DNA from: a virus | Lineage: Duplodnaviria; Heunggongvirae; Uroviricota; Caudoviricetes | Direction: 5' to 3' (one strand) | IMG/VR virus record: IMGVR_UViG_2645727867_000003 | DNA length: 53,137 nt | Shown: in pieces, positions 1-49,244 of the stretch | Layout of the letters: every line of letters starts with the position of its first letter | Numbering within the stretch: the first letter of the stretch is position 1 | Position numbers and translations under genes: made by a program | The notes under the pieces: model-generated | Told to the model about the DNA's origin: nothing | Database searches by the model: none | Seen by the model: only the letters and a program-made list of their open reading frames with translations

Positions 1-524
1 ATGACAACTCAAATCTCTGTTGAAACCATCTCCCCGTTCACCCATAACCAGATTCCTGTTATTACCACCGAACTTTTGGCGCAGCTTTATGGCACCGAAA
101 TTCTGAATATCCAGGTTAACTTCACCAGAAACAAAGAGCGTTTTGTCGAAGGAAAGCACTTTTTTAAAGCATCGGGTGAAGAATTAAAAAATTTGCGACT
201 TACTTTAAGTAAGTCACAAAACCCCATATCTCCCAAAGCCCGCCCCTCACCCTATGGACAGAACGCGGAGCAGCACGCCACGCAAAAATGCTGGAAACCG
301 TTCAGGCGTGGGAAGTGTTCGAAAAACTCGAAGACTGTTATTTCAGCCAAAAACAGCCACCAGCAGCACAAAACCCCCCAACCCAAAATGATGGATACGC
401 ATTACTGATCCACCTCGATAAACACGGGCAGGTCGAATTCACGGAAAAAATCCCCGCCGATGCGATGGTATGCACTCTGGAACGGTTTTTATCTGGAGCA
501 ACACGACTGGATCGTTGCCCGTAA
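1..524 (+). pseudogene. ORF6N-domain antirepressor-like gene, disrupted by a frameshift near 230-245
   Basis: Frame 1 (1..408) matches the N-terminus of the intact paralog at 42437..42988 (ITTELLAxLYGTE...RFxEGKHFFKA). Homology then continues in frame 2 (288..524, ...AARHAKMLETVQAWEVFEKLED...). Confidence 0.5.
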
Positions 525-930
525 AGAACAACTGGTAGAACGGTTGATGCGGTTTTAATGATTGCAAAACCCCGGATGATCACTGGGGTTAATTTTATCA
601 AGCGTGATTGCCGCTAATCGCCCTCTCTCTGATTGAGCGTAAATCATCCAGGTTATGCAGTTCTTCCTGGACGTAATTGTCACAGGCTCCAGCAATGATA
701 GACTCTCAATTTTAAGAGCCGTAGATAAAGAGCCTGCACATACGTTCATTAAGCAAACGCTTCAAAATGTCTGGAAAAAAATACGGACTTCCGAAAATCT
801 GAAAAATCATCCATATCAACAGGATGCACGAAAAATGAGAGTTCCGTCACTTCCGGAATTAACTTTTCCGTGGCACTATTTACCCGGCATAGTGTATATC
901 TTCACAATAATGACATAATCAACGCAGTTC

Positions 931-962
931 ATGGGGGAGGTGATGGTCCCCCATCTTTTTGT
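931..962 (+). terminator. intrinsic terminator (8-bp stem ATGGGGGA/TCCCCCAT followed by T-run)
   Basis: Perfect inverted repeat with 8-nt loop followed by CTTTTTGT on the plus strand. Confidence 0.5.
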
Positions 963-965
963 CTG

Positions 966-1637
966 TTATTCCTGTGCCCAGCCAACCCTGTATACCAGGA
1001 TCTCATCCGCACTGCTCAGCGATTCCAGGTCCTTCTTCATGGTGCGCTGGCGAATGTGGATTTCCATCCCTTTGCTGAACATCGCCTGCTCTGCCGCTTC
1101 ACTCAGCGCAATAAGCTCTTCTGCTGTCACCTGTACATCATTGTTTTCCGCATCCGTCCAGAAAAACGCCTCCGGCAGTTTCCCCGCTTTCGCTGCCGCC
1201 ACCGATGGCTCAAGGCGCGTCTGCGTTGACTTTCCGTAGTCCCATTTCCGGCCATTGTGCTCAAACGTGTAGTTCGCCGCCTCCATCGCATTACGCCACG
1301 CGTTTATTTCATCGCCCTTCATCCCGCGCGCTTTCTCCGCGGTCAGAGTATCAACGACGTTTTCCCCGTCAAACTTCCACCGCCCGGAGATATCAGCTTT
1401 GCGGTTTTCTGCTGTATCCTCAACCTCCACCACACTCTGCCCCACTGGCCACAGCATCGACACATCCTTACTGATACTCGTGATTATGCCTTCGCTGTCA
1501 TAAACCAGCTTCAGCGTATCCGCCTTAAATGACGACTGGCTTTCATACCAGTCACGGCCATCCTCTGCCTTCAGGTACATTGACCCCGGAACATCCGACT
1601 TCTCAGGAGTATAACGTTGCAGATTTTTAAGATTCAT
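966..1637 (-). CDS. putative tail fiber assembly/chaperone protein (called mainly from position downstream of stf)
   Basis: 223-aa ORF immediately downstream of the side tail fiber gene. No clear match to the lambda Tfa C-terminal motif. Confidence 0.45.
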   Translation of the reverse strand: MNLKNLQRYTPEKSDVPGSMYLKAEDGRDWYESQSSFKADTLKLVYDSEGIITSISKDVSMLWPVGQSVVEVEDTAENRKADISGRWKFDGENVVDTLTAEKARGMKGDEINAWRNAMEAANYTFEHNGRKWDYGKSTQTRLEPSVAAAKAGKLPEAFFWTDAENNDVQVTAEELIALSEAAEQAMFSKGMEIHIRQRTMKKDLESLSSADEILVYRVGWAQE

Positions 1638-1705
1638 TTCTTCTCCTCATACGAATATTCAGGACAGGGTACCCGTTTAAGCTTTCCGCGCCCGGAAAAA
1701 TCATG

Positions 1706-2974
1706 TTATTCATGTTCCACCGTAACCCACTGGCTGCCATCATGAACCTGAAGGAAGCCGTAAGTGACAGCGGTGACACAGGCTGCCCCTAAATTGCCGT
1801 TCGTCAGTGATACCGGAGCCGTCCTGATATTCAGAATCACAGCGCCATCAGGGGCTGCATTTTCCCCCTGCGCACCGCCATAAAAAGAGGGGAAAACGAC
1901 TGTGCTGGAGGTGACTTCTGTTTTCTCGCTGATACGCACTCTGTTCGCCTGTGAATCTGCGCCATCCTTCCCTGCGGGGCCCGTCGGCCCGGTATCACCT
2001 TTCGGCCCCCGCTCACCGGCAGGGCCTGCCGGGCCGGGGTCACCTTTATCCCCTTTTTCCCCTTGTGGTCCTCTGGGGCCGGTAGCACCCTGTGGACCTC
2101 GATCACCAGGCTCGCCTTTTTCCCCCTTAGGACCGACGCTACCTGTTGGCCCCGGAGGTCCAGGTATACCCTGTGGACCAGCCGGACCTGTATCGCCTCT
2201 CTCCCCTGCCACACCCTGCAATCCTTGCGGCCCTCTCTCTCCGGCGGGTCCCCTCGGACCTGCCGGGCCCTGAGGCCCCGGCTCCCCTCTGGGGCCAGTG
2301 TCACCTTTTGGTCCCGGAGGTCCTCCGGGATCTCCCGGCTCTCCTTTTTCGCCTCTGGCTCCGGTTTCACCTCGCGGGCCCGCAGGACCAGCAGGCCCCT
2401 GAATACCCGCCTCTCCTTGCGGTCCCACGGGTCCGGTTTCACCCCGTGGCCCCTGTACCCCCTGTGGGCCTGCCTCACCACGCTCACCCTTTGGCCCACG
2501 CTCGCCGGTATCGCCTTTTGGCCCGGGAATACCCTGTGGCCCGGTGTCTCCCTTATCCCCCTTCGGTCCCCGCGCATTCTCTGCCCGTTTCTTCGCTTCC
2601 TCTGCACTCGCCGCTGACGCTTCCGCACGTTTCAGGATTTCCGCGGCCACCGCTTCCAGCTCTGCAAGGGCTTTCGGGTAATACTGTGCGTCCTCCAGGT
2701 CCATCAGAAATTTATTCAGCGTTCCCGGTGCAGAGTCCGCCTTCACCAGAATGTCACCCACATATGACGGCGCGTACCCTTCCGTGTTCAGCGTCACCCG
2801 GTACAACCCCGGCTCAACATCCATACTGTAACTGCCGGTTTCCCCCGGCTGACCATACGCCACCGTGGTGACAATCACCGTCTCCGTTGTGCGTCGCGCT
2901 TTCAGCTCTATCGTGCATCCCGGTACCGGCTTACCGGCCCCGTCCTTCAGCACACCAGAAATTTTAACCGTCAT
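1706..2974 (-). CDS. stf: side tail fiber protein with long collagen-like Gly-X-Y repeat region
   Basis: N-terminus [17 protein letters not shown]...CTIELKARR resembles lambda Stf. The central ~270 aa are Gly-X-Y triplets ([20 protein letters not shown]...). SD GGAAAGG precedes the ATG at 2974. Confidence 0.85.
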
Positions 2975-2986
2975 ACCTTTCCACCA

Positions 2987-3018
2987 ATAAAAAAGCCCGC
3001 AGCAGTAATGCCACGGGC
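2987..3018 (-). terminator. intrinsic terminator between lom and stf
   Basis: Minus-strand hairpin GCCCG...CGGGC followed by T6, about 14 nt upstream of the stf RBS. Confidence 0.5.
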
Positions 3019-3123
3019 TTCAGGACAGTGTAACTTTACGTTTCCTCAGACGCAGCTCACCCATAAGGTGGATGAACATGCTCATTATACCAATATTTAC
3101 AGAAGATAAAGCTGTATCTGCCG

Positions 3124-31853: not shown

Positions 31854-31859
31854 ACATGT

Positions 31860-31885
31860 AAAAAGGCTCCTGCGATGAGGAGCCT
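31860..31885 (-). terminator. minus-strand intrinsic terminator convergent with the sRNA-A terminator
   Basis: Hairpin GGCTCCT-N6-AGGAGCC followed by T5 on the minus strand. Confidence 0.5.
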
Positions 31886-31899
31886 GGATGTATGCCTAA

Positions 31900-32900
31900 T
31901 CTCTGTATACTGCATGGTGCCGGGTGCCTCCCGGTGAACAAATGTCCGTGATATCAGTCGGCCACACAGGAAATGATACGATATCACCCCTCCGCACAGG
32001 GGGATTCACCATGCCCGTTTTTTTTAACAAACTCCTCATCAATCAGACAATCATCAACCTCATGAATTGTGAGGAATTTAACATTTCACAACACAGCCTT
32101 TTCCCTGCATAAAAAAGCCCCTCCGGAGAGGGGCTTCGCTACGTGTCTGTTAACCATATGCATGATGCCGGGTGCCTCCCGGTGAGTTCAGTATCAGCAC
32201 CTGAACCCGCACAGAAAGGATAGAGTAGAAACACCTGCGCTGATATGCCCCTCCGCTCAGGGGGATTCACCATGCAGAACTTTTTTAACAACTCCCCGTA
32301 AGACAGGCAAGCATCAACCATCTGAACTGTGAGGAATTTAACATTTCACAACACAGCGTTTTTCCTGCATAAAAAAGCCCCTCAGGAGAGGGGCTGACAC
32401 TGCGTATCTGTATCATCATGAACATGGTGCCGGGTGCCTCCCGGTGAGTCCAGTCTGGTGTCCCTGAACCCGCGTTTGCATTGCCTACAACAGAAAAGAT
32501 GCAAATCACACCAGTCGCCCCTCCGCACAGGGGGATTCACCATGCAGAACTTTTTTAACAACTCCCCCTCAGACAGGCAAGCATCAACCACCTGAACTGT
32601 GAGGAATTTAACACTTAACAACACAGCCTTTTCCCGCACAAAAAAAGCCCCTCCGGAGAGGGGCCGATCGCTATGTATACACCATAAGCAGCATAGTGCC
32701 GGGTGCCTCCCGGTAGATTCAGCCTGACTACTGAATCTGCGTATTGTGACCATCGCTATGGAGACCATGTCAGACGCCCCTCCGCACAGGGGGATTCACT
32801 ATGCTGGCTCGTTTTTACAAGACTTCCATCGATCAGACAATAGCCCATCAACCGAATTGTGAGTCATTTAACATTTCCATGAGGTAACTGATATCCAGCT
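31900..32900 (-). repeat. tandem array of four ~260-bp structured repeat units (candidate minus-strand sRNA genes), each with a hypervariable internal hairpin
   Basis: Each unit has conserved blocks GTGCCGGGTGCCTCCCGGTGA, CCCCTCCGCACAGGGGGATTCACCATGC, GAATTGTGAGGAATTTAACATTTCACAACACAG and a minus-strand terminator GCCCCTC-CGGA-GAGGGGC plus T6 (32111-32134, 32371-32394, 32641-32664). A 50-70-nt unit-specific segment lies between the first two blocks. Confidence 0.6.
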
Positions 32901-33122
32901 AACAATCATCTACAATGGACGAAGCCAGTTCCAGAACTTGCCCACGGTACAGCAACAACCACTGCATACACATAATTACCACCGGACTCTCTGAACCTGC
33001 CTCCTGGCTAACCCCAGATACAACACCACCAGTCACAAAAGCATCTTATTCTGAAGTACAACTGCCGTGCGGCAGATACTAAAAGCGCCTGTATGTAACA
33101 ACATAAATATACAGGATATGTT

Positions 33123-33401
33123 TTATCCACGGGATATAATTTTGATTTCATCAAAACCGTTACTACCTGCAATTCTGTTGTACTCCTGAACAAGACTCAG
33201 TAACTCCGAATTAGCCGCGGTGAACTCCTCACAGACGTTCCGAAGTGCATCTACATCCAGAAGAACCATCTCCTGACCTGAACGTCGATCAGGGGTACAA
33301 AATAAAACTGTCAGACGACTGAAGACCTTTGTTCGTTCCACATTGACGGCTTCAATACGCTGTAACAGTTGGCTACATCTGATTTTCTCATCAATATTCA
33401 C
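33123..33401 (-). CDS. hypothetical protein (92 aa) downstream of the AraC-family regulator
   Basis: GTG-start ORF in an AT-rich segment. Weak SD. Confidence 0.3.
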   Translation of the reverse strand: MNIDEKIRCSQLLQRIEAVNVERTKVFSRLTVLFCTPDRRSGQEMVLLDVDALRNVCEEFTAANSELLSLVQEYNRIAGSNGFDEIKIISRG

Positions 33402-33489
33402 GCAAACACCAAATGATTATAACTTTTTATGCTGAACACATTCAGACTATATCTAATACAGTCAATCAATATATGCCTGATGAAAAACA

Positions 33490-34215
33490 TCAGATAACGT
33501 CTGCTTTCTGCAAATATGCATAGCTCTCAGGTGGTGCACCATAATACTGGTGAAATACAGAAATGAAGTAGGACTTACTTGAGTAACCACATTTTTCCGC
33601 TATCGCTTGTCCACACTCTCGCTGGAAACATACAAGATTAACAGCAACACGCATTCGCTCCTCCAGCAACAACCGACTAAAGCTATAACCTTCATCCTTA
33701 AGTTTTCGCTTCAACAAGCTTTCGCTCATATGCAATTGTAATGCAATCACACCAAGCATCCAGCCTGCCGATATGTCGGTCTGAATTATAGCCCTTACTT
33801 TACAGCTGATATTATTTACAGCACCGGACAAAAATAATGGCAGACGTCTGTCTGTTGCAAATAAGGAGATACATGAAAATGCGGTTATAACAGAGAAATC
33901 CTTCAAAGTATCACTGGATTCACTATGCTGGGTTATTAAAGCCTCCGCCAGTTCCGTATTGTAAATATCAGACATCAAATAAAGAGGAATTTTTGTCGGT
34001 GTATACTCCGTCAGTTCACACTCCCTTTCCAGATACTGATTGACGACGCTGTTACTTATATCTGCCATTTTCACTCTGTCGGCATAAGCACAGAAAAGCC
34101 CTCTTATATTTCTGGCAACAAGCATAACACTTCCGGCATCGAGTGAAACTTTTTCTTTTTCAAGAAAAATATCTATCGGATAGCGAATCAGGACCACAGA
34201 GCAGGCAACATCCAT
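33490..34215 (-). CDS. AraC/XylS-family transcriptional regulator (GadX-like C-terminal HTH)
   Basis: C-terminal …LLKRKLKDEGYSFSRLLLEERMRVAVNL…CGYSSKSYFISVFHQYYGAPP… is an AraC-type double HTH. AT-rich codon usage. Confidence 0.8.
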   Translation of the reverse strand: MDVACSVVLIRYPIDIFLEKEKVSLDAGSVMLVARNIRGLFCAYADRVKMADISNSVVNQYLERECELTEYTPTKIPLYLMSDIYNTELAEALITQHSESSDTLKDFSVITAFSCISLFATDRRLPLFLSGAVNNISCKVRAIIQTDISAGWMLGVIALQLHMSESLLKRKLKDEGYSFSRLLLEERMRVAVNLVCFQRECGQAIAEKCGYSSKSYFISVFHQYYGAPPESYAYLQKADVI

Positions 34216-34282
34216 TTTGAATTAACCTTAGCAAAAAGACTTAATACCAGTATATTCCAAAAATGGCATTTTGGGAGATTAC

Positions 34283-34455
34283 TTCTGCAAACCGCTCCCG
34301 CTAAATACATCCCTGATTTCCTGCGCAGTCTGTTCAAAACGCCCGGTATCCAGCTCAACGCCAGTTGCACGACGCCCCAGCGCCATCGCTGCTTTAACTG
34401 CCGAACCCTACCCCATGAAGAAATCTGCAACCAGGACACCCAGCAGAAGGGAGAC
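34283..34455 (-). pseudogene. remnant 3' fragment of a DNA methyltransferase gene (paralogous to 35819-35990)
   Basis: Nucleotide alignment to the 3' end of the intact methylase gene. Translation …ADFFMG*GSAVKAAMALGRRATGVELDTGRFEQ… carries an in-frame TAG. Confidence 0.55.
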
Positions 34456-34486
34456 TACAGCCCGCAATTCGAAAAAGGCCACGCTA

Positions 34487-34516
34487 TTGCGCAGAGTGAT
34501 TACTGTCGGGTATTAT
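34487..34516 (+). promoter_or_regulatory. sigma70-like promoter (TTGCGC-18 nt-TATTAT), paralog of 31740-31769
   Basis: Identical hexamers and spacing. Confidence 0.45.
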
Positions 34517-34523
34517 TCGCCAG

Positions 34524-34591
34524 TTGAAGTATTACTTCACGTTTTATTGTTTATTCCTTGCCGCCCGCGTCTCCCAGCGCGGGCTTTTTTT
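34524..34591 (+). ncRNA. candidate ~70-nt sRNA, paralog B
   Basis: Same conserved core as paralog A. The terminator stem is changed in a compensatory way (GCCCGCG-N8-CGCGGGC plus T7). Confidence 0.4.
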
Positions 34592-34599
34592 GTCCATAA

Positions 34600-34860
34600 G
34601 AAAGCCCCTCCGGAGAGGGGCTGAAGCCGCATTTCTGTATCACCATGAGCATGGTGCCGGGTGCCTCCCGGTGAGTTCAGCCCGGTGACACCAAACCCGC
34701 GTATTCTCGCTTACGATCATCAAAGAGATCATACCGTTCACCAGTCGCCCCTCCGCACAGGGGGATTCACCATGCGAAATTTTTTTAACAAATGCTCAGT
34801 CTGACAGGCAACTGTCAACTTACTGAATTGTGAGGGATTTAACACTTCACAGCACAATAT
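34600..34860 (-). repeat. solitary fifth copy of the ~260-bp structured repeat unit
   Basis: Contains all four conserved blocks plus its own variable segment. Minus-strand terminator at 34605-34628. Confidence 0.55.
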
Positions 34861-35617: not shown

Positions 35618-35694
35618 TGGACCGCCATCGAGGACTCGAACCCCGCGCAGCCAGCTTCGAAGGCTGGCGCTCTATCCCGATGAGCTAATGGCGG
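35618..35694 (-). tRNA. tRNA-Arg (anticodon UCG)
   Basis: Hand-folded cloverleaf: acceptor CCGCCAT/ATGGCGG, D-stem GCTC/GAGC, anticodon loop CUUCGAA, T-loop TTCGAGT, 3' CCA encoded. Confidence 0.7.
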
Positions 35695-35702
35695 TATGGA
35701 TA

Positions 35703-35778
35703 TGGTGGCCCTTGCTGGATTTGAACCAGCGACCTGGCGATTATGAGTCGCTCGCTCTCACCACTGAGCTAAAGGGCC
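35703..35778 (-). tRNA. tRNA with CAU anticodon, ileX-like (tRNA-Ile2 read via lysidine, or Met)
   Basis: GGCCCTTTAGCTCAGTGGTGAGAGCGAGCGACTCATAATCGCCAGGTCGCTGGTTCAAATCCAGCAAGGGCCACCA closely resembles E. coli ileX as recalled from memory. Confidence 0.8.
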
Positions 35779-42009: not shown

Positions 42010-42165
42010 TTACTCCTCAGGTTCGTAAGCTGTGAAGACAGCGACCTCCGTCTGGCCGGTTCGGATTCGTACCTCGCAGAGGTCTTTCCTCGTTACCAGT
42101 GCCGTCATTATGACGGTTAAACAGATGACAATCAGGGCGATTAACATCGCCTTTTGCTGCTTCAT
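42010..42165 (-). CDS. hokD: Hok/Gef-family type I toxin (HokD/RelF-like)
   Basis: MKQQKAMLIALIVICLTVIMTALVTRKDLCEVRIRTGQTEVAVFTAYEPEE. SD AGGAG upstream. Confidence 0.8.
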   Translation of the reverse strand: MKQQKAMLIALIVICLTVIMTALVTRKDLCEVRIRTGQTEVAVFTAYEPEE

Positions 42166-42436
42166 AGCCTGCTTCTCCTTGCCTTTCGGCACGTAAGAGG
42201 CTAACCTACATGTGCAAAGCATGAAATTGGCCTCAGATTAATGTTAAGCGTCCTGCAAGACGCGTAATGTTAACTGGGGCTTTTCTCTGTCTGCCTTACG
42301 GCGGCATGCCCGAGGCAGACAGCCTCAAGCACCCGCAGCAATTCTACTTAACTCTTCTTTCCCCGCAAATCATTTTATCCCCGATGGTAATGTTCTCCCG
42401 ATATGGGAATTCCCATATCAAGGTTAACTCAATCGG

Positions 42437-42988
42437 TTAAAGCTCCATTAATTTTCCGGCCAGTTCATCTCGTGGCATTACCAGCCATCCGCGCGATTTA
42501 AGCAAAGCCAGGGCTTCTTCAACCGTCACCAGCTGGCCTGGCGCATAACTTCGGATGAAGGCGGTTTTATCGTCACGGATCGCCAGGTGAAAATCGATAT
42601 TCATTTTTCCCATAGCCCGCTCTTTCTCGTACTGGTTGAAGTAACTGTCTTCGAGTTTTTCGAATACTTCCCACGCCTGATCGGTTTCGAGCATTTTTGC
42701 ATGACGGGCTGCTCCGCGTTCTGTCCAGAGGATGAGAGTGCGGGTTTTGGGAGAAATTTTCACCTCATTTTGCGACTCGTTTAAAACTAGTCGCAAATTT
42801 TTGAGCTCATCACCAACAGCTTTAAAGAAGTGTTTTCCCTCAATAAATCGAGATTTATTTTCATGGTGATTCTGCTGTATACGGATTGCTTCTGTTCCGT
42901 AAAGGCGGGCGAGTAACTCAGTTGTGATTACAGGAATCTGGTTATAAGTGACAGGGGAAAGGTTTTTGACAGTAACTTGAGTCGTCAT
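42437..42988 (-). CDS. ORF6N-domain antirepressor-like protein (intact paralog)
   Basis: N-terminal …ITTELLARLYGTE…RFIEGKHFFKAVGDELK… ORF6N-like. 183 aa. Confidence 0.6.
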   Translation of the reverse strand: MTTQVTVKNLSPVTYNQIPVITTELLARLYGTEAIRIQQNHHENKSRFIEGKHFFKAVGDELKNLRLVLNESQNEVKISPKTRTLILWTERGAARHAKMLETDQAWEVFEKLEDSYFNQYEKERAMGKMNIDFHLAIRDDKTAFIRSYAPGQLVTVEEALALLKSRGWLVMPRDELAGKLMEL

Positions 42989-43329
42989 GATAACGCCCTC
43001 TGGTTGATGAATTTAACTATCACCACCTTCAGGTCTCAATCATCAGGTGGCGAGACGTACAGGGTTGAGACTACCGGATCAACCAACCGGCCAGCCTTTC
43101 GGCTGCCCCATACGCCTCACCATAATTCAGATGTGCGTGCGCATACGACAATAAAAAACACGCTCGCGGCGTGTGTCTGTCGCGGTTGAATATCCGGGGT
43201 CTCAATCCCGACGGTCAACTCGACCGTGCGGTGAATATAGCCCCGGATTAGTAATTACGTCAACCCCAGCGGCAAATCGAATAAACCACCAGCGCTACCG
43301 CCATTGCAACTCCTGCCGTTACGAATGCC

Positions 43330-46129: not shown

Positions 46130-46589
46130 GCTTGAAAGCGATTGCTTTTTCTATAAGCTCGTCTGTCTCACGTTCCACAACAGCTGGATCTGCAAAAAGC
46201 AGCCCGGACTCCACCACATCGCCATATTCTTTGTTTAACCCGGCAATCATGTACGTAATGCTTTTTCCGTCAGTAATTTCGCGGTACAACCTGAAATCAC
46301 TAATCCGGATAGCCTCCATAATTGCCGGAATCAGCGCCGTGAATTTTTCACGCTTATCCCTGGTGTCGATAGCCTTCCAGCGTTCGAATATCTTCACCCG
46401 GTTAACGCCAAGCGCACGCTGATCAACCCCGCCATCATCAAGCGTGACACGCTGAACATCGATGTTCGGGCGTTCCTGTAGAGCCCAGAAGGCTTCAGTG
46501 ATTAATATCGTCGCCTGCTCCTGCGTCATTCCTGGTCGGCTTATCCAGGCATCCAGGGCATCGCGTGCCTGCTCAAGGGTGATTTTCAT
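46068..46589 (-). CDS. YdaT-like protein
   Basis: Partial similarity to Rac YdaT as recalled (…REKFTALIPAIMEAI…). Lies directly after the Cro-like gene. Confidence 0.45.
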   Translation of the reverse strand: MKITLEQARDALDAWISRPGMTQEQATILITEAFWALQERPNIDVQRVTLDDGGVDQRALGVNRVKIFERWKAIDTRDKREKFTALIPAIMEAIRISDFRLYREITDGKSITYMIAGLNKEYGDVVESGLLFADPAVVERETDELIEKAIAFKRAYRHQYQQKAGWNYEPSFC

Positions 46590-46803
46590 TGTTCAACCGC
46601 CCCGCCCGCTTCGTCTTACGATATTCGTCATAAACTTTGGGGTCATACTGAAGCTCCCCGCCGGATGCCTCTTGCAGGCGCATCGCGCGACCTTCAGGTA
46701 CTAGCTCCCCTTTCCAGCTATAAAGCGAAGCCAAACGAATACCAGCAGCTTGTGCAAGTTTTGTTTTTGAACCGAAATACAAAAGTGCATCAGTTTTAAG
46801 CAT
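46573..46803 (-). CDS. dicC: DicC-like Cro-type repressor
   Basis: MLKTDALLYFGSKTKLAQAAGIRLASLYSWKGELVPEGRAMRLQEASGGELQYDPKVYDEYRK… is near-identical to E. coli DicC as recalled. Confidence 0.85.
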   Translation of the reverse strand: MLKTDALLYFGSKTKLAQAAGIRLASLYSWKGELVPEGRAMRLQEASGGELQYDPKVYDEYRKTKRAGRLNNENHP

Positions 46804-46886
46804 TTAAAACACCTTGATAGTTAGTCATAGCTAACAAAATAAATGTTAACAAAAACATAGTCAATAAGGTTTAGCATTAGCTAACT
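46804..46886. promoter_or_regulatory. divergent dicC/dicA promoter-operator region
   Basis: Inverted repeats GTTAGTCATAGCTAAC and TTAGCATTAGCTAACTATGG (core TTAGCTAA) between the divergent genes. Confidence 0.6.
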
Positions 46887-47294
46887 ATGGATACAAAAAA
46901 TTTAACCATTGGCGAACGCATTAGACATCGCCGAAAAAACCTCAAATACACCCAAAGGTCTCTTGCTAAAGCCCTGAAAATTTCTCATGTATCGGTTTCA
47001 CAATGGGAACGGGATGTTAGCGAACCTACAGGGAAGAATCTTTTTGCCCTCAGCAACGTACTGCAGTGCTCGCCAACATGGATTCTATTTGGCGATGAAG
47101 ACAAGCAGCCATCACCACCTATTGAGGAGCCAGTTGCTCTATCCCCCAAAGAACATGAGCTCCTTGAGCTTTTTAATGCATTGCCTGAATCAGAACAGGA
47201 TGCTCAGCTCACCGAGATGCGCGCCCGAGTAAAAAATTTCAACAAACTCTTTGAAGAGTTATTAAAAGCCCGTCAACGAACAAACAAAAGATAA
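46887..47294 (+). CDS. dicA: DicA-like CI-type repressor (XRE HTH)
   Basis: MDTKNLTIGERIRHRRKNLKYTQRSLAKALKISHVSVSQWER… 135 aa, near-identical to E. coli DicA as recalled. Confidence 0.9.
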   Translation: MDTKNLTIGERIRHRRKNLKYTQRSLAKALKISHVSVSQWERDVSEPTGKNLFALSNVLQCSPTWILFGDEDKQPSPPIEEPVALSPKEHELLELFNALPESEQDAQLTEMRARVKNFNKLFEELLKARQRTNKR

Positions 47295-47458
47295 CGCAAT
47301 CAATGCGTTATCTTTTTGGCTGACAAAAATGTTAGCCATGGCAAACAAAACACTTGACCGAACTGTTAGCCATGACTAATCTTGCTTACATCAAGACACC
47401 GCACGGTGTTCTCAGCAAACAGTTCCGCTACCCGGCGTTAAGGGCAAATGAGGTCAAC

Positions 47459-47611
47459 ATGGATACACTCAATCTTGGCAACAACGAATCTCTGGTATGC
47501 GGTGTGTTCCCTAACCAGGACGGCACGTTTACCGCGATGACATATACCAGAAGCAAAACGTTTAAAACTGAAGCTGGCGCGCATCGCTGGTTAGCCAGAA
47601 ACACTGACTGA
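47459..47611 (+). CDS. ydfA: YdfA-like small protein
   Basis: MDTLNLGNNESLVCGVFPNQDGTFTAMTYTRSKTFKTEAGAHRWLARNTD. Position after dicA as in Qin. Confidence 0.55.
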   Translation: MDTLNLGNNESLVCGVFPNQDGTFTAMTYTRSKTFKTEAGAHRWLARNTD

Positions 47612-47991
47612 TGAGGTTGACGATGGAATTTAAAGATTTACCAGTACCATTCCAGGATATGGCAGCGAATATAGTTCGTTCTCAACTGGCGACTCTTGAC
47701 CTGAGTACCGTAGAAAAAGAAACCATCGACAATATATCCCATAATGTGCGTAATGCCTTTATCAAGCTGTACGAAGAGAAGCTGAGTTCTGAAAACAAAG
47801 ATTATTCACCTAAATTCACCCCACCCCCAGGTGGAGTGAGTGAGATTTATCATGAAACAATGGTTAAAGCACTACGTATGCAAATAGCCGAACTTGAACA
47901 TAAATTAAATTTAGTTAGTAAGTGCCAAAATCAGCACAAGGCAAAAGGGTTGCACTTTCATCATAAGGGCAAACAAAAATGTGAGCATTAA
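47611..47991 (+). CDS. hypothetical protein (126 aa) in the repressor operon
   Basis: ORF directly after the ydfA-like gene. No recognisable domain. Confidence 0.4.
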   Translation: MRLTMEFKDLPVPFQDMAANIVRSQLATLDLSTVEKETIDNISHNVRNAFIKLYEEKLSSENKDYSPKFTPPPGGVSEIYHETMVKALRMQIAELEHKLNLVSKCQNQHKAKGLHFHHKGKQKCEH

Positions 47992-48217
47992 CACCAACTG
48001 AATTAGCAACAGAAAAGGTTTGTTCAAGTATTTGATTCGAATTGAGCGTTGACTGAATAACGTATGCCCCTGGCAACAATTTATATTCAACGTCACCTTC
48101 ATTAATCATCCTGGAGTATTTAAAATTTGGCATCAGAGTCTCGAACTTTTTCTCCTGTTCCATTGTTGCTTCAAATAACTGCACATGAACATAATATCGA
48201 TTTGATTTAGAGTGCAT
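47915..48217 (-). CDS. hypothetical protein (100 aa), convergent with the repressor operon
   Basis: SD GGAGGAT 5 nt before the ATG at 48217. AT-rich. Confidence 0.4.
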   Translation of the reverse strand: MHSKSNRYYVHVQLFEATMEQEKKFETLMPNFKYSRMINEGDVEYKLLPGAYVIQSTLNSNQILEQTFSVANSVGVNAHIFVCPYDESATLLPCADFGTY

Positions 48218-49244
48218 TTTATCCTCCATAGAGGTTCTGGGTTAAAAATGGAGACCAACACGCTGTCACGTGTGGTCGTGCGCCGGACACGGATAAGAAT
48301 CCGGCACTGACAGTTTACTGAAAGAACATATCCCTGAAAAGTCAGGGCATAACACGAAAGCGCACGGCGAAGTTAGTCTCTCTGTACAGGTCGTCGTTAA
48401 ATTTAATTCGATCGTGCGCTTCCGGTTGTGGCAATCCGCGAAATGGCGCGGCGGTAAGTATGGCTGGGGCTTCCTCCATTACTCCAGAAAATGCACCGGG
48501 TTGTCAGGTTGACCATACGCCTGAGTGACAACACCGCCACAACAATCTCTGTTATCACTTTTCTGGTGATTCGGCGGAAATGGATATCCGCCATTTTTAA
48601 AGTGTATTTTGTGATGCGGTGAATGCGGCTAAGCGCACGCGGAACAGTTAAAACAAGCGGTCTTTTACTGGCGTAACAGACATCAACTAACAATCCGGCG
48701 TTAATTGTTAACTGGTTAACGTCACCTGGAGGCACCAGACACCACATCACAAAATTCATTGTTGAGGACGCGATAATGGAAACGTCACTACCAAACGTTA
48801 ATACGTCTGAAGGGTGTTTTAATATTGGTATTCTGCTCAGTAACCGGGAGTTTACTGAGGACGCCATCAGGATGAGAAAATATGAGCCTTATCTTCTCAA
48901 TGATAATTCCATACTCTCCAGAATTGCCCTTCTTGAACTTGGCATTTTCGGAGGGCAGCAGTGAGTTCAGCGTTTGCACTGATGATGACGGTTTTTCTGA
49001 TAACAGGTGAGCCACAGAATGTGATTACCGGAATTTATGCCAGTAAAGAATCCTGCCATCAGGCAAGAGACGAGCAAAAAATTTCCGGTGAATGTCTCCC
49101 GTTAAACAAAGTATCGCTGTACCTGAATAACGAAATACCGGCTGGATAACCCACCAGCCATATTAACGCCATACCAACGGATTAAAAATGCCAGCAATGG
49201 CAGGGATTCGTTCACCCTGAAATCTGTAATGAGGTTTAAACACA

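What the first reader, a model, noticed from the sequence alone, without database searches (positions are those of the whole stretch)
46804..47390. Family of related operator-like boxes flanking the dicA-like repressor gene
The divergent dicC/dicA intergenic region contains GTTAGTCATAGCTAAC and TTAGCTAACTATGG. Downstream of dicA there are two further related boxes, GTTAGCCATGGCAAAC (about 47328-47343) and GTTAGCCATGACTAAT (about 47364-47379). Operators on both sides of the repressor gene would allow looping or control of the downstream ydfA-like operon.
Basis: seen in the sequence. Interest (0 to 1): 0.4.

Follow-up and report, generated by a model that had tools for sequence, protein, structure and literature searches.

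The report
Known DicA/DicC prophage operator boxes
The repeated boxes on both sides of the dicA-like gene are the ordinary repressor-binding sites (operators) of a Qin/P22-type prophage immunity switch, already described in E. coli K-12, so the finding is real but not new.

Summary
Four 16-bp boxes with the core TTAGY-N4-RCTAA flank the dicA-like gene: 46820-46835, 46870-46885, 47331-47346 and 47365-47380. The core matches exactly 3 times in 53 kb against 0.09 expected, and the four boxes are the only sites above chance.

The window is an E. coli lambdoid prophage whose dicC-dicA-ydfA region is 89% identical to K-12 Qin, which has the same four boxes.
- Box 1 is the K-12 Oc operator, shown in vivo to depend on DicA.
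- Box 4 lies between the -35 (TTGACC) and -10 (TAATCT) of the dicBp-like promoter.
- Box 3 lies just upstream of that -35.
- Box 2 holds the likely -10 of the dicA promoter.

The layout matches P22 OR/OL, and the DicA N-terminal domain is a P22 C2 homologue. In seven heteroimmune relatives the downstream boxes change together with the upstream operator and the recognition helix; the correct pairing is the single best of 5040 permutations.

Published K-12 work reports operators in both intergenic regions, 22-fold DicA repression of dicBp, and DicC ChIP-seq sites on either side of dicA. Control of the downstream operon is therefore supported. DNA looping is untested and has no support here. Verdict: already known, low interest.

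The parts
46573..46803 (-). dicC (Cro-like regulator, 76 aa)
   Evidence: ORF. Pfam P22_Cro, E 1.3e-11. RefSeq annotates it as dicC in the identical strain 94-3024.
46820..46835 (.). Box 1 = Oc operator (OR1 analogue), GTTAGTCATAGCTAAC. It abuts the -10 of dicCp and covers its start site.
   Evidence: One substitution relative to K-12 Oc GTTAGTCATAACTAAC. K-12 Oc mediates DicA-dependent repression in an in vivo reporter assay, and a single A-to-C change abolishes it (PMC3441716). The arms GTTAG/CTAAC are invariant in 52 distinct type-A sequences.
46836..46864 (-). dicCp promoter (PR analogue): -35 TTGACT at 46864-46859, 17-bp spacer, -10 TATTTT at 46841-46836
   Evidence: Promoter scan. The AGTCAA hexamer is at a fixed offset from the repressor ATG in 15 of 17 loci, P22 included; L008 has AGTAAA and L014 GGTCAA. 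In K-12 the DicA site is annotated at -8 to +12 of dicCp (bioRxiv 10.1101/2025.05.13.653802).
46845..46860 (.). Candidate weak middle operator Om (OR2 analogue), GTTAACAAAAACATAG
   Evidence: It matches 8 of 12 arm positions by my reading of the sequence. The equivalent right arm next to AGTCAA co-varies with immunity type in most relatives, and P22 OR2 has the same offset from the ATG. It is invariant within type A. K-12 Om did not bind DicA in vivo (PMC3441716).
46870..46885 (.). Box 2 = Oa operator (OR3 analogue), TTTAGCATTAGCTAAC. It contains the probable dicA -10 (TAGCAT, 46872-46877).
   Evidence: Exact core match. Identical to K-12 and invariant in 52 type-A sequences. A TAnnnT hexamer lies 12-15 nt before the ATG in 17 of 17 loci, with no Shine-Dalgarno sequence in 16 of them. 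K-12 Oa did not bind DicA in vivo (PMC3441716). DicC ChIP-seq peaks at this intergenic region (PMC11430063).
46887..47294 (+). dicA-like repressor (135 aa)
   Evidence: 91% identical to K-12 DicA. Pfam HTH_3 only. Residues 7-71 match the P22 C2 N-terminal domain, E 7e-19 (PDB 1adr, 2r1j, 3jxb).
47286..47318 (+). Hairpin plus T-run after dicA (terminator-like, symmetric)
   Evidence: 13-pair stem at 47286-47316; the scan reported it on the minus strand. The + strand reads GATAACGCA..TGCGTTATC followed by TTTTT.
47331..47346 (.). Box 3 = distal dicBp operator (OL2 analogue), GTTAGCCATGGCAAAC, 7 bp upstream of the -35
   Evidence: One-mismatch core match. The left arm is nearly invariant while the sequence just upstream is highly variable, and the right arm is degenerate (GCAAAC or GCATAC) throughout type A. 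In other immunity types the box at this position is a perfect palindrome of their own sequence.
47354..47382 (+). dicBp-like promoter (PL analogue): -35 TTGACC at 47354-47359, 17-bp spacer, -10 TAATCT at 47377-47382; likely start near 47389-47390 (CATCAA)
   Evidence: Read from the sequence. The -10 matches the consensus at only 3 of 6 positions, so the consensus scan did not report this promoter. The -35 is invariant in type A and present as TTGACC in P22 PL. K-12 dicBp lies upstream of ydfA (PMC10448788).
47365..47380 (.). Box 4 = proximal dicBp operator (OL1 analogue), GTTAGCCATGACTAAT, overlapping the spacer and -10
   Evidence: Exact core match. Matches K-12 Oc at 10 of 12 arm positions. 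Its arms are invariant, apart from rare variants at the last base, in type A. The 34-bp centre-to-centre distance to box 3 equals the P22 OL1-OL2 distance.
47459..47611 (+). ydfA-like first gene of the repressed operon (DUF1391)
   Evidence: Pfam DUF1391, E 1.3e-29. RefSeq CDS. dicB lies further downstream at 48776-48964 (Pfam DicB).

Best explanation
The boxes are the operators of a Qin/P22-type lambdoid immunity switch.

The DicA-like repressor, presumably as a dimer, is inferred to bind the 14-bp palindromic core TTAGY-N4-RCTAA through a P22-C2-like helix-turn-helix domain.

- At box 1 (Oc) it blocks the dicC promoter, whose -10 abuts the box and whose start site lies inside it. In K-12 it also stimulates its own promoter from this site.
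- At box 4, which sits in the spacer and -10 of the promoter downstream of dicA, and at box 3, just upstream of the -35, it excludes RNA polymerase. This keeps the ydfA-like/dicB early-left operon silent.
- Box 2 (Oa) overlaps the -10 of the probable leaderless dicA promoter. It is the OR3-like site through which the Cro-like DicC, and perhaps excess DicA, shuts off dicA.

What is shown here: the sequence, its positions, non-randomness, conservation, and covariation with repressor type. What is shown in the literature for the 89%-identical K-12 locus: DicA dependence of Oc, repression of dicBp, and DicC occupancy on both sides of dicA. What is inferred: direct DicA contact with boxes 3 and 4, and the division of labour between DicA and DicC at box 2.
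For: - **Non-random and confined.** The boxes are far above chance and occur only in the two intergenic regions flanking dicA.
- **Orthology with K-12 Qin.** The region is orthologous to K-12 Qin with all four boxes, the -35 and the -10 conserved.
- **Within-type conservation.** In 52 distinct type-A sequences the arms GTTAG/CTAAC are invariant or nearly so. Box position 6, the central bases and the flanks vary.
- **Covariation across heteroimmune relatives.** The same four positions carry other palindromes, for example TTAGR-N4-YCTAA with helix VAHVTISQWE, TTGAG-N4-CTCAA with VSGSSISLWE, and ATAAC-N4-GTTAT with KSSVSVFKWE.
- **Pairing test.** Each type's upstream operator matches its own downstream region best. 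Own mean is 19.8 against 15.7 across types, and the identity pairing is the unique maximum of 5040 permutations.
- **Homology to P22.** The DicA N-terminal domain is homologous to P22 C2 and DicC is in the P22_Cro family.
- **Same layout as P22.** A P22-like phage has OR boxes at -64, -41 and -16 from the c2 ATG, and OL1/OL2 34 bp apart around a TTGACC -35.
- **Literature on K-12.**
  - DicA-dependent repression through Oc in an in vivo reporter assay, abolished by one base change (PMC3441716).
  - Operators reported in both intergenic regions, and dicBp derepressed 22-fold in a dicA deletion (PMC10448788).
Against: - No direct binding data exist for this allele.
- In K-12, Om and Oa did not bind DicA in the in vivo assay (PMC3441716).
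- The DicA site at dicBp was still listed as low-evidence with unknown location in 2020 (PMC7567609).
- The right arm of box 3 is degenerate (GCAAAC), so it may be weak or may need cooperativity.
- The proposed -10, TAATCT, matches the consensus at only 3 of 6 positions and was not picked up by the consensus scan.
Confidence: 0.9

Rival explanations
1. Long-range looping. DicA bound at the Oc/Oa cluster and at the box 3/4 cluster, 511-545 bp apart, would interact to form a DNA loop over the dicA gene, giving cooperative repression as with lambda CI at OL-OR.
For: Operator clusters do lie on both sides of the repressor gene. The layout is homologous to OR and OL of lambdoid phages. Ten of 15 loci have an Oc-to-proximal-box distance within about 1.5 bp of a multiple of 10.5 bp, but most of these share ancestry and gene length.
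Against: DicA is 135 aa with only an HTH domain detected, so it has no LexA/S24-like C-terminal domain of the kind that mediates tetramer and octamer formation in lambda CI (established knowledge). Five of 15 loci are clearly out of phase, at 4-7 bp. No experimental report of DicA oligomers beyond what an inverted-repeat site implies turned up in the papers read.
Confidence: 0.12
2. The downstream boxes, and box 2, are mainly DicC (Cro-like) sites rather than DicA sites. DicA would repress dicBp through box 4 only, or indirectly.
For: ChIP-seq in K-12 directly shows DicC at two sites, one on each side of dicA, with a matching palindromic motif (PMC11430063). DicA did not bind Oa or Om in vivo (PMC3441716). 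The DicA site at dicBp is undocumented in databases (PMC7567609).
Against: Deleting dicA derepresses dicBp 22-fold, while deleting dicC has no effect (PMC10448788). Box 4 is the second-best match in the window to the DicA-validated Oc. In lambdoid switches the repressor and Cro share the same operators, so DicC binding does not exclude DicA binding. The box sequences co-vary with the repressor recognition helix, although the Cro-like helix also differs between types.
Confidence: 0.15
3. The similarity of the boxes reflects chance or shared promoter elements (AT-rich -10-like sequence) rather than protein-binding sites.
For: Box 4 and box 2 each overlap a -10-like hexamer. With one mismatch allowed, the window-wide count is not significant (5 found against 2.6 expected).
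Against: Exact matches number 3 against 0.09 expected. The palindromic arms are invariant while the centres vary. The arms change in concert at all positions when the repressor type changes, while the -35 hexamers stay the same.
Confidence: 0.02

Closest known systems
dicA-dicC-dicBp immunity region of the Qin cryptic prophage of E. coli K-12 (Bejar et al. 1988, not held here; Yun et al. 2012, PMC3441716; PMC10448788, J Bacteriol 2023)
   Same: Same gene order: ydaT/ydfX side, dicC, dicA, ydfA, then dicB. DicA is 91% identical. The nucleotide identity is about 89% across the region. All four boxes, both promoters and the terminator hairpin lie at the same positions.
   Different: Box 1 has one substitution (A to G), which makes it a slightly less symmetric palindrome than K-12 Oc (5 rather than 6 of 6 arm pairs). 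Boxes 3 and 4 differ at 4 and 2 positions, mostly central. This prophage has intact replication genes next to dicC, no detectable DicF and different genes between ydfA and dicB.
Phage P22 immC region: c2 repressor, cro, OR1-3 and PL/OL1-3
   Same: The repressor N-terminal domain is homologous (E 7e-19) and the Cro-like protein is in the P22_Cro family. Operators have two 5-bp arms around a 4-bp centre. Box offsets from the repressor ATG are the same. The -35 hexamers are the same (TTGACT for PR, TTGACC for PL). The OL1-OL2 spacing is the same at 34 bp. The transcript start CATCA is shared.
   Different: The arm sequence is TTAGY here and TTAAG in P22. No OL3-like third box lies upstream of box 3. 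DicA lacks the LexA-like cleavable C-terminal domain (135 aa against 216 aa for P22 C2; PMC10448788). No nutL boxA/boxB is recognisable in the leader.
Antirepressor-controlled lambdoid repressors that RecA does not cleave (Gifsy prophage repressors; DicA with Rem)
   Same: A short repressor without a cleavage domain. A candidate antirepressor module (an ORF6N protein behind C4/isrK RNAs) lies 4 kb away in the same prophage.
   Different: No test was done on whether the ORF6N protein acts on this DicA. Rem itself was not searched for.

Membership tests
Qin-type dicA/dicC/dicBp immunity region | Divergent dicC (Cro-like) and dicA (HTH repressor) genes orthologous to those of K-12 | tested here: met
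   DicA is 91% identical to K-12 DicA. DicC differs at 2 of 76 residues. RefSeq names both genes in the identical strain.
Qin-type dicA/dicC/dicBp immunity region | Oc operator (TTGTTAGTCATAACTAACAA in K-12) at the dicC promoter | tested here: met
   46820-46835 differs from the K-12 16-mer at one position. It abuts the -10 of the predicted dicCp.
Qin-type dicA/dicC/dicBp immunity region | A separate promoter (dicBp) downstream of dicA, preceding ydfA and carrying related operator boxes | tested here: met
   TTGACC, 17 bp, TAATCT, with boxes 3 and 4, all aligned with K-12. A DUF1391 gene follows.
Qin-type dicA/dicC/dicBp immunity region | DicA protein binds the boxes and represses both promoters | not testable with these tools
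   Only literature on the K-12 orthologue is available (PMC3441716, PMC10448788). Support here is indirect, from the covariation test.
P22/lambda-type lambdoid immunity region (OR and OL operator clusters) | Repressor DNA-binding domain and Cro homologous to those of a lambdoid phage | tested here: met
   P22 C2 N-terminal domain, E 7e-19. P22_Cro family, E 1.3e-11.
P22/lambda-type lambdoid immunity region (OR and OL operator clusters) | Three tandem operators between the repressor and cro genes | tested here: inconclusive
   Oc and Oa are clear. The middle site, 46845-46860, matches only 8 of 12 arm positions, although its position equals that of P22 OR2 and its counterpart co-varies in other types. 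K-12 Om did not bind DicA (PMC3441716).
P22/lambda-type lambdoid immunity region (OR and OL operator clusters) | Operators overlapping the leftward early promoter on the far side of the repressor gene | tested here: met
   Boxes 3 and 4 bracket the -35 with the same 34-bp spacing as P22 OL2/OL1. No OL3 equivalent was found.
P22/lambda-type lambdoid immunity region (OR and OL operator clusters) | Repressor with a LexA/S24-like C-terminal domain that RecA-stimulated self-cleavage inactivates | tested here: not met
   Only HTH families hit the 135-aa protein. The literature states that DicA lacks the Ala-Gly cleavage site (PMC10448788). The switch therefore works like a P22 switch, but the repressor is not a c2/cI-class protein.
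Lambda-type OL-OR looping | Higher-order repressor oligomers bridging the two clusters, with helical phasing conserved | tested here: inconclusive
   Inter-cluster distances are 532-600 bp, and 5 of 15 loci are out of phase. The oligomeric state cannot be tested here.

The most novel reading that the evidence does not exclude
DicA-type repressors lack the lambda-type cooperativity domain. They might nevertheless bridge the OR-like and OL-like operator clusters, about 0.5 kb apart, through their short helical C-terminal half. That would loop out their own gene and couple repression of dicCp and dicBp to autoregulation.
Probability: 0.12. Interest if true: 0.35.

Novelty: already known. Interest (0 to 1): 0.1.

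Why it matters
The finding matters little beyond correct annotation. It places the operators and promoters of a DicA-type immunity switch in this prophage, which controls the cell-division inhibitor DicB. The analysis adds two modest points.

- **Formal covariation test.** The dicBp boxes co-vary with the repressor type. Databases still listed the DicA site at dicBp as unlocated in 2020, so this supports its position.
- **Candidate specificity position.** Base 5 of each arm is Y in type A and R in types with helix VAHVTISQWE. This could be used to engineer orthogonal repressor-operator pairs.

Tried and rejected
- **More boxes elsewhere in the prophage.** Degenerate pattern, K-12 Oc identity scan and position weight matrix all found nothing above chance. 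The only extra hit, at 47915, is at chance level.
- **A third, OL3-like box upstream of box 3.** None was found. That stretch is the most variable part of the region.
- **Helical phasing as evidence for looping.** Not informative. The distances are confounded by shared ancestry, and a third of loci are out of phase.
- **An RNA structure or nut/put-like element in the conserved leader after dicBp.**
  - Single-sequence fold z-score is 0.12.
  - The consensus fold has only 7 pairs at -2.7 kcal/mol.
  - There is no Rfam hit.
  - I left this as a passing note.
- **Automated choice of the Oc register by best palindrome.** It mis-registered several loci. I replaced it with boxes curated from the ATG-anchored alignment.
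- **Bejar et al. 1988, the original description.** The paper is not held, so its content is cited only through later papers.
- **Searches not run.** I did not run the large protein searches or structure prediction, because a monomer model would not settle oligomerisation.

Full report
**1. What is in the sequence.**

The region 46573-47611 holds four genes or gene parts:
- a leftward 76-aa gene, 46573-46803;
- a rightward 135-aa gene, 46887-47294;
- a hairpin with a T-run, 47286-47318;
- a rightward 50-aa DUF1391 gene, 47459-47611.

The window is 100% identical to E. coli strain 94-3024, where RefSeq names the two regulators dicC and dicA. dicB lies further downstream, and phage replication genes (O-like, ATPase) and ydaT lie to the left.

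Three are correctly framed 16-mers: 46820-46835, 47331-47346 and 47365-47380. The fourth, TTAGCTAACTATGG (46877-46890), is out of register and runs into the dicA start codon. The true palindrome there is TTTAGCATTAGCTAAC at 46870-46885. In register, the four boxes read:
- G TTAGT CATA GCTAA C
- T TTAGC ATTA GCTAA C
- G TTAGC CATG GCAAA C
- G TTAGC CATG ACTAA T

**2. More than chance.**

The core TTAGY-N4-RCTAA matches exactly three times in 53,137 bp against 0.09 expected, and no shuffle of 100 reached three. All three matches lie within 560 bp, in the two non-coding stretches flanking dicA. Allowing one mismatch adds box 3 and one site at 47915, and that count is at chance level.

Two further scans found nothing else in the prophage. 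One used the experimentally validated K-12 Oc sequence and the other a position weight matrix built from the boxes. Oc matches at 11/12 and 10/12 arm positions at boxes 1 and 4. The best matrix score outside the four boxes is 10.6 bits, below the maxima seen in shuffled sequence.

**3. Position relative to promoters.**

On the minus strand a promoter, TTGACT-17-TATTTT (46864-46836), reads toward dicC. Box 1 begins immediately after its -10 and so covers the start site. This agrees with the K-12 annotation of the DicA site at -8 to +12 of dicCp (bioRxiv 10.1101/2025.05.13.653802).

Downstream of dicA the sequence reads TTGACC (47354-47359), a 17-bp spacer, then TAATCT (47377-47382). Box 4 occupies the spacer and the first four bases of the -10, and box 3 ends 7 bp upstream of the -35. 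The -10 is weak, at 3 of 6 consensus positions though with the key T1, A2 and T6, and the consensus scan did not report it.

Box 2 ends one base before the dicA ATG and contains TAGCAT 10-15 nt upstream of it. In 17 of 17 related loci, P22 included, a TAnnnT hexamer sits 12-15 nt before the repressor ATG. No Shine-Dalgarno sequence is present in 16 of them. I infer a PRM-like promoter giving a leaderless or nearly leaderless repressor mRNA, with box 2 as its OR3-like operator.

**4. Orthology with K-12 Qin.**

The region aligns with the dicC-dicA-ydfA region of K-12 (strain MC4100) at about 89% identity over the query (94% mean column identity in the 693-column alignment). All four boxes, both -35 hexamers, the -10 and the hairpin are in place.

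Box 1 differs from the K-12 Oc operator at one base. Yun et al. showed in an in vivo reporter assay that repression through Oc depends on DicA, that one A-to-C change in the right arm abolishes it, that Oc on a multicopy plasmid is toxic by titration, and that DicA at Oc represses dicC and activates dicA. Two further sequence-predicted sites, Om and Oa, did not bind in that assay (PMC3441716).

The J Bacteriol 2023 study (PMC10448788) states that both intergenic regions contain operator sequences like those of lambda PR and PL, citing Bejar et al. 1988. It shows 22-fold derepression of dicBp in a dicA deletion, no effect of a dicC deletion, and an antirepressor, Rem.

A 2024 preprint reports DicC ChIP-seq. 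[quoted passage not shown] In contrast, the 2020 Reg-Seq paper notes that the DicA site for dicB was low-evidence with unknown location (PMC7567609).

**5. Comparative test of the operator reading.**

Within the same immunity type (52 distinct sequences from 78 loci):
- The arms GTTAG and CTAAC of boxes 1 and 4 are invariant, apart from rare variants at the last base of box 4.
- Box position 6 and the central bases vary.
- Box 2 is fully invariant.
- The left arm of box 3 is nearly invariant, and its right arm is degenerate everywhere (GCAAAC or GCATAC).
- The stretch just upstream of box 3 is the most variable part of the region.

Many E. coli genomes match only the flanks of the query. The central part, including the box 3/4 stretch, is replaced there by a different repressor/Cro module. 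Loci from other E. coli strains and other Enterobacterales have the same architecture but different palindromes at the same four offsets:
- TTAGR-N4-YCTAA with recognition helix VAHVTISQWE;
- GTTAGA...TTTAAC with VSHVTISQWE;
- TTGAG-N4-CTCAA with VSGSSISLWE;
- GTTGAG...TTAAAC with VSYASISLWE;
- ATAAC-N4-GTTAT with KSSVSVFKWE.

I scored each locus's upstream operator against every locus's downstream region. The own-locus mean was 19.8 of 24 against 15.7 across types. With one representative for each of seven types, the correct pairing is the single best of all 5040 permutations.

The downstream boxes therefore belong to the immunity specificity module and co-evolve with the repressor and Cro. 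Shared promoter elements cannot explain this, because the -35 hexamers stay constant.

**6. Relation to P22.**

Residues 7-71 of the repressor match the P22 C2 N-terminal domain with E 7e-19 (PDB 1adr, and the DNA complexes 2r1j and 3jxb). DicC is in the P22_Cro family.

In a P22-like phage the TTAAG-N4-CTTAA boxes lie at -64, -41 and -16 from the c2 ATG. Here the core 14-mers lie at -66, about -41 and -16. OL1 and OL2 lie 34 bp apart around a TTGACC -35, followed by CCATCA. The window has the same 34 bp, the same -35 and CATCAA.

There are three differences. No OL3-like box is present. The repressor has no LexA-like C-terminal domain. The leader has no recognisable nutL.

**7. Looping.**

Centre-to-centre distances are 50 bp (box 1 to box 2), 34 bp (box 3 to box 4), and 511 and 545 bp between the clusters. 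Among 15 loci the Oc-to-proximal-box distance is 532-600 bp. Ten are near a multiple of 10.5 bp, but most of those share the same gene length by descent, and five are 4-7 bp out of phase. With no cooperativity domain of the lambda type and no oligomerisation data, looping remains a possibility without support.

**8. Verdict.**

Its operator interpretation and the control of the downstream operon are well supported. It restates the published architecture of the Qin immunity region, here in an 89%-identical allele inside a more complete prophage. Novelty: already known. Interest: low.

Noticed in passing
window 42437-43227 (-): An ORF6N-domain protein (42437-42988; Pfam E 1.9e-20) lies directly downstream, on the same strand, of a C4 antisense RNA (43043-43127) and an isrK RNA (43153-43227). 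This looks like a P1-type c4/ant antirepressor module. It could be the inducer of the non-cleavable DicA-like repressor, analogous to Rem in Qin.
   Followed up: partly
window 47611-48776: No DicF sRNA was detected between the ydfA-like gene and dicB (48776-48964), either at the Rfam gathering threshold or at E<=1. The interval holds a 126-aa ORF (47611-47991, +) and two minus-strand ORFs (47915-48229 and 48403-48867). None of the three has a Pfam hit.
   Followed up: partly
window 47389-47458: The transcribed leader after the dicBp-like promoter starts with CATCAA. Its first roughly 60 nt are nearly identical across several heteroimmune types in which the operators differ. It contains small inverted repeats (ACACCG/CGGTGT at 47396-47410 and CCC..GGG at 47431-47445). 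Structural support is weak: fold z-score 0.12, and only 7 consensus pairs. Its function is unknown. It is not a recognisable nutL.
   Followed up: partly
window 46872-46889, and loci L001-L023 and L107: Repressor genes of this family, P22 c2 included, have a TAnnnT hexamer 12-15 nt before the ATG in 17 of 17 loci and no Shine-Dalgarno sequence in 16 of them. This suggests leaderless mRNA from a PRM-like promoter embedded in the Oa/OR3 operator.
   Followed up: partly
window 31854-34804 (-): Five copies of the STnc100 sRNA family lie in this stretch, four of them in a tight tandem run (31854-32833) and the fifth at 34592-34804. Bit scores are 119-172. Two tRNA genes lie nearby at 35621-35778 (-), and a hok/sok-type sok RNA at 42160-42334 (-).
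   Followed up: no
whole window: The + strand is C-rich (C 29.2%, G 22.9%), a strong strand compositional skew.
   Followed up: no
L006, L016, L017 (genome contigs): Contigs carrying this enterobacterial prophage module are filed under metagenome bins named Collinsella, Bacillota and Veillonella parvula. These are probably binning contaminants.
   Followed up: no
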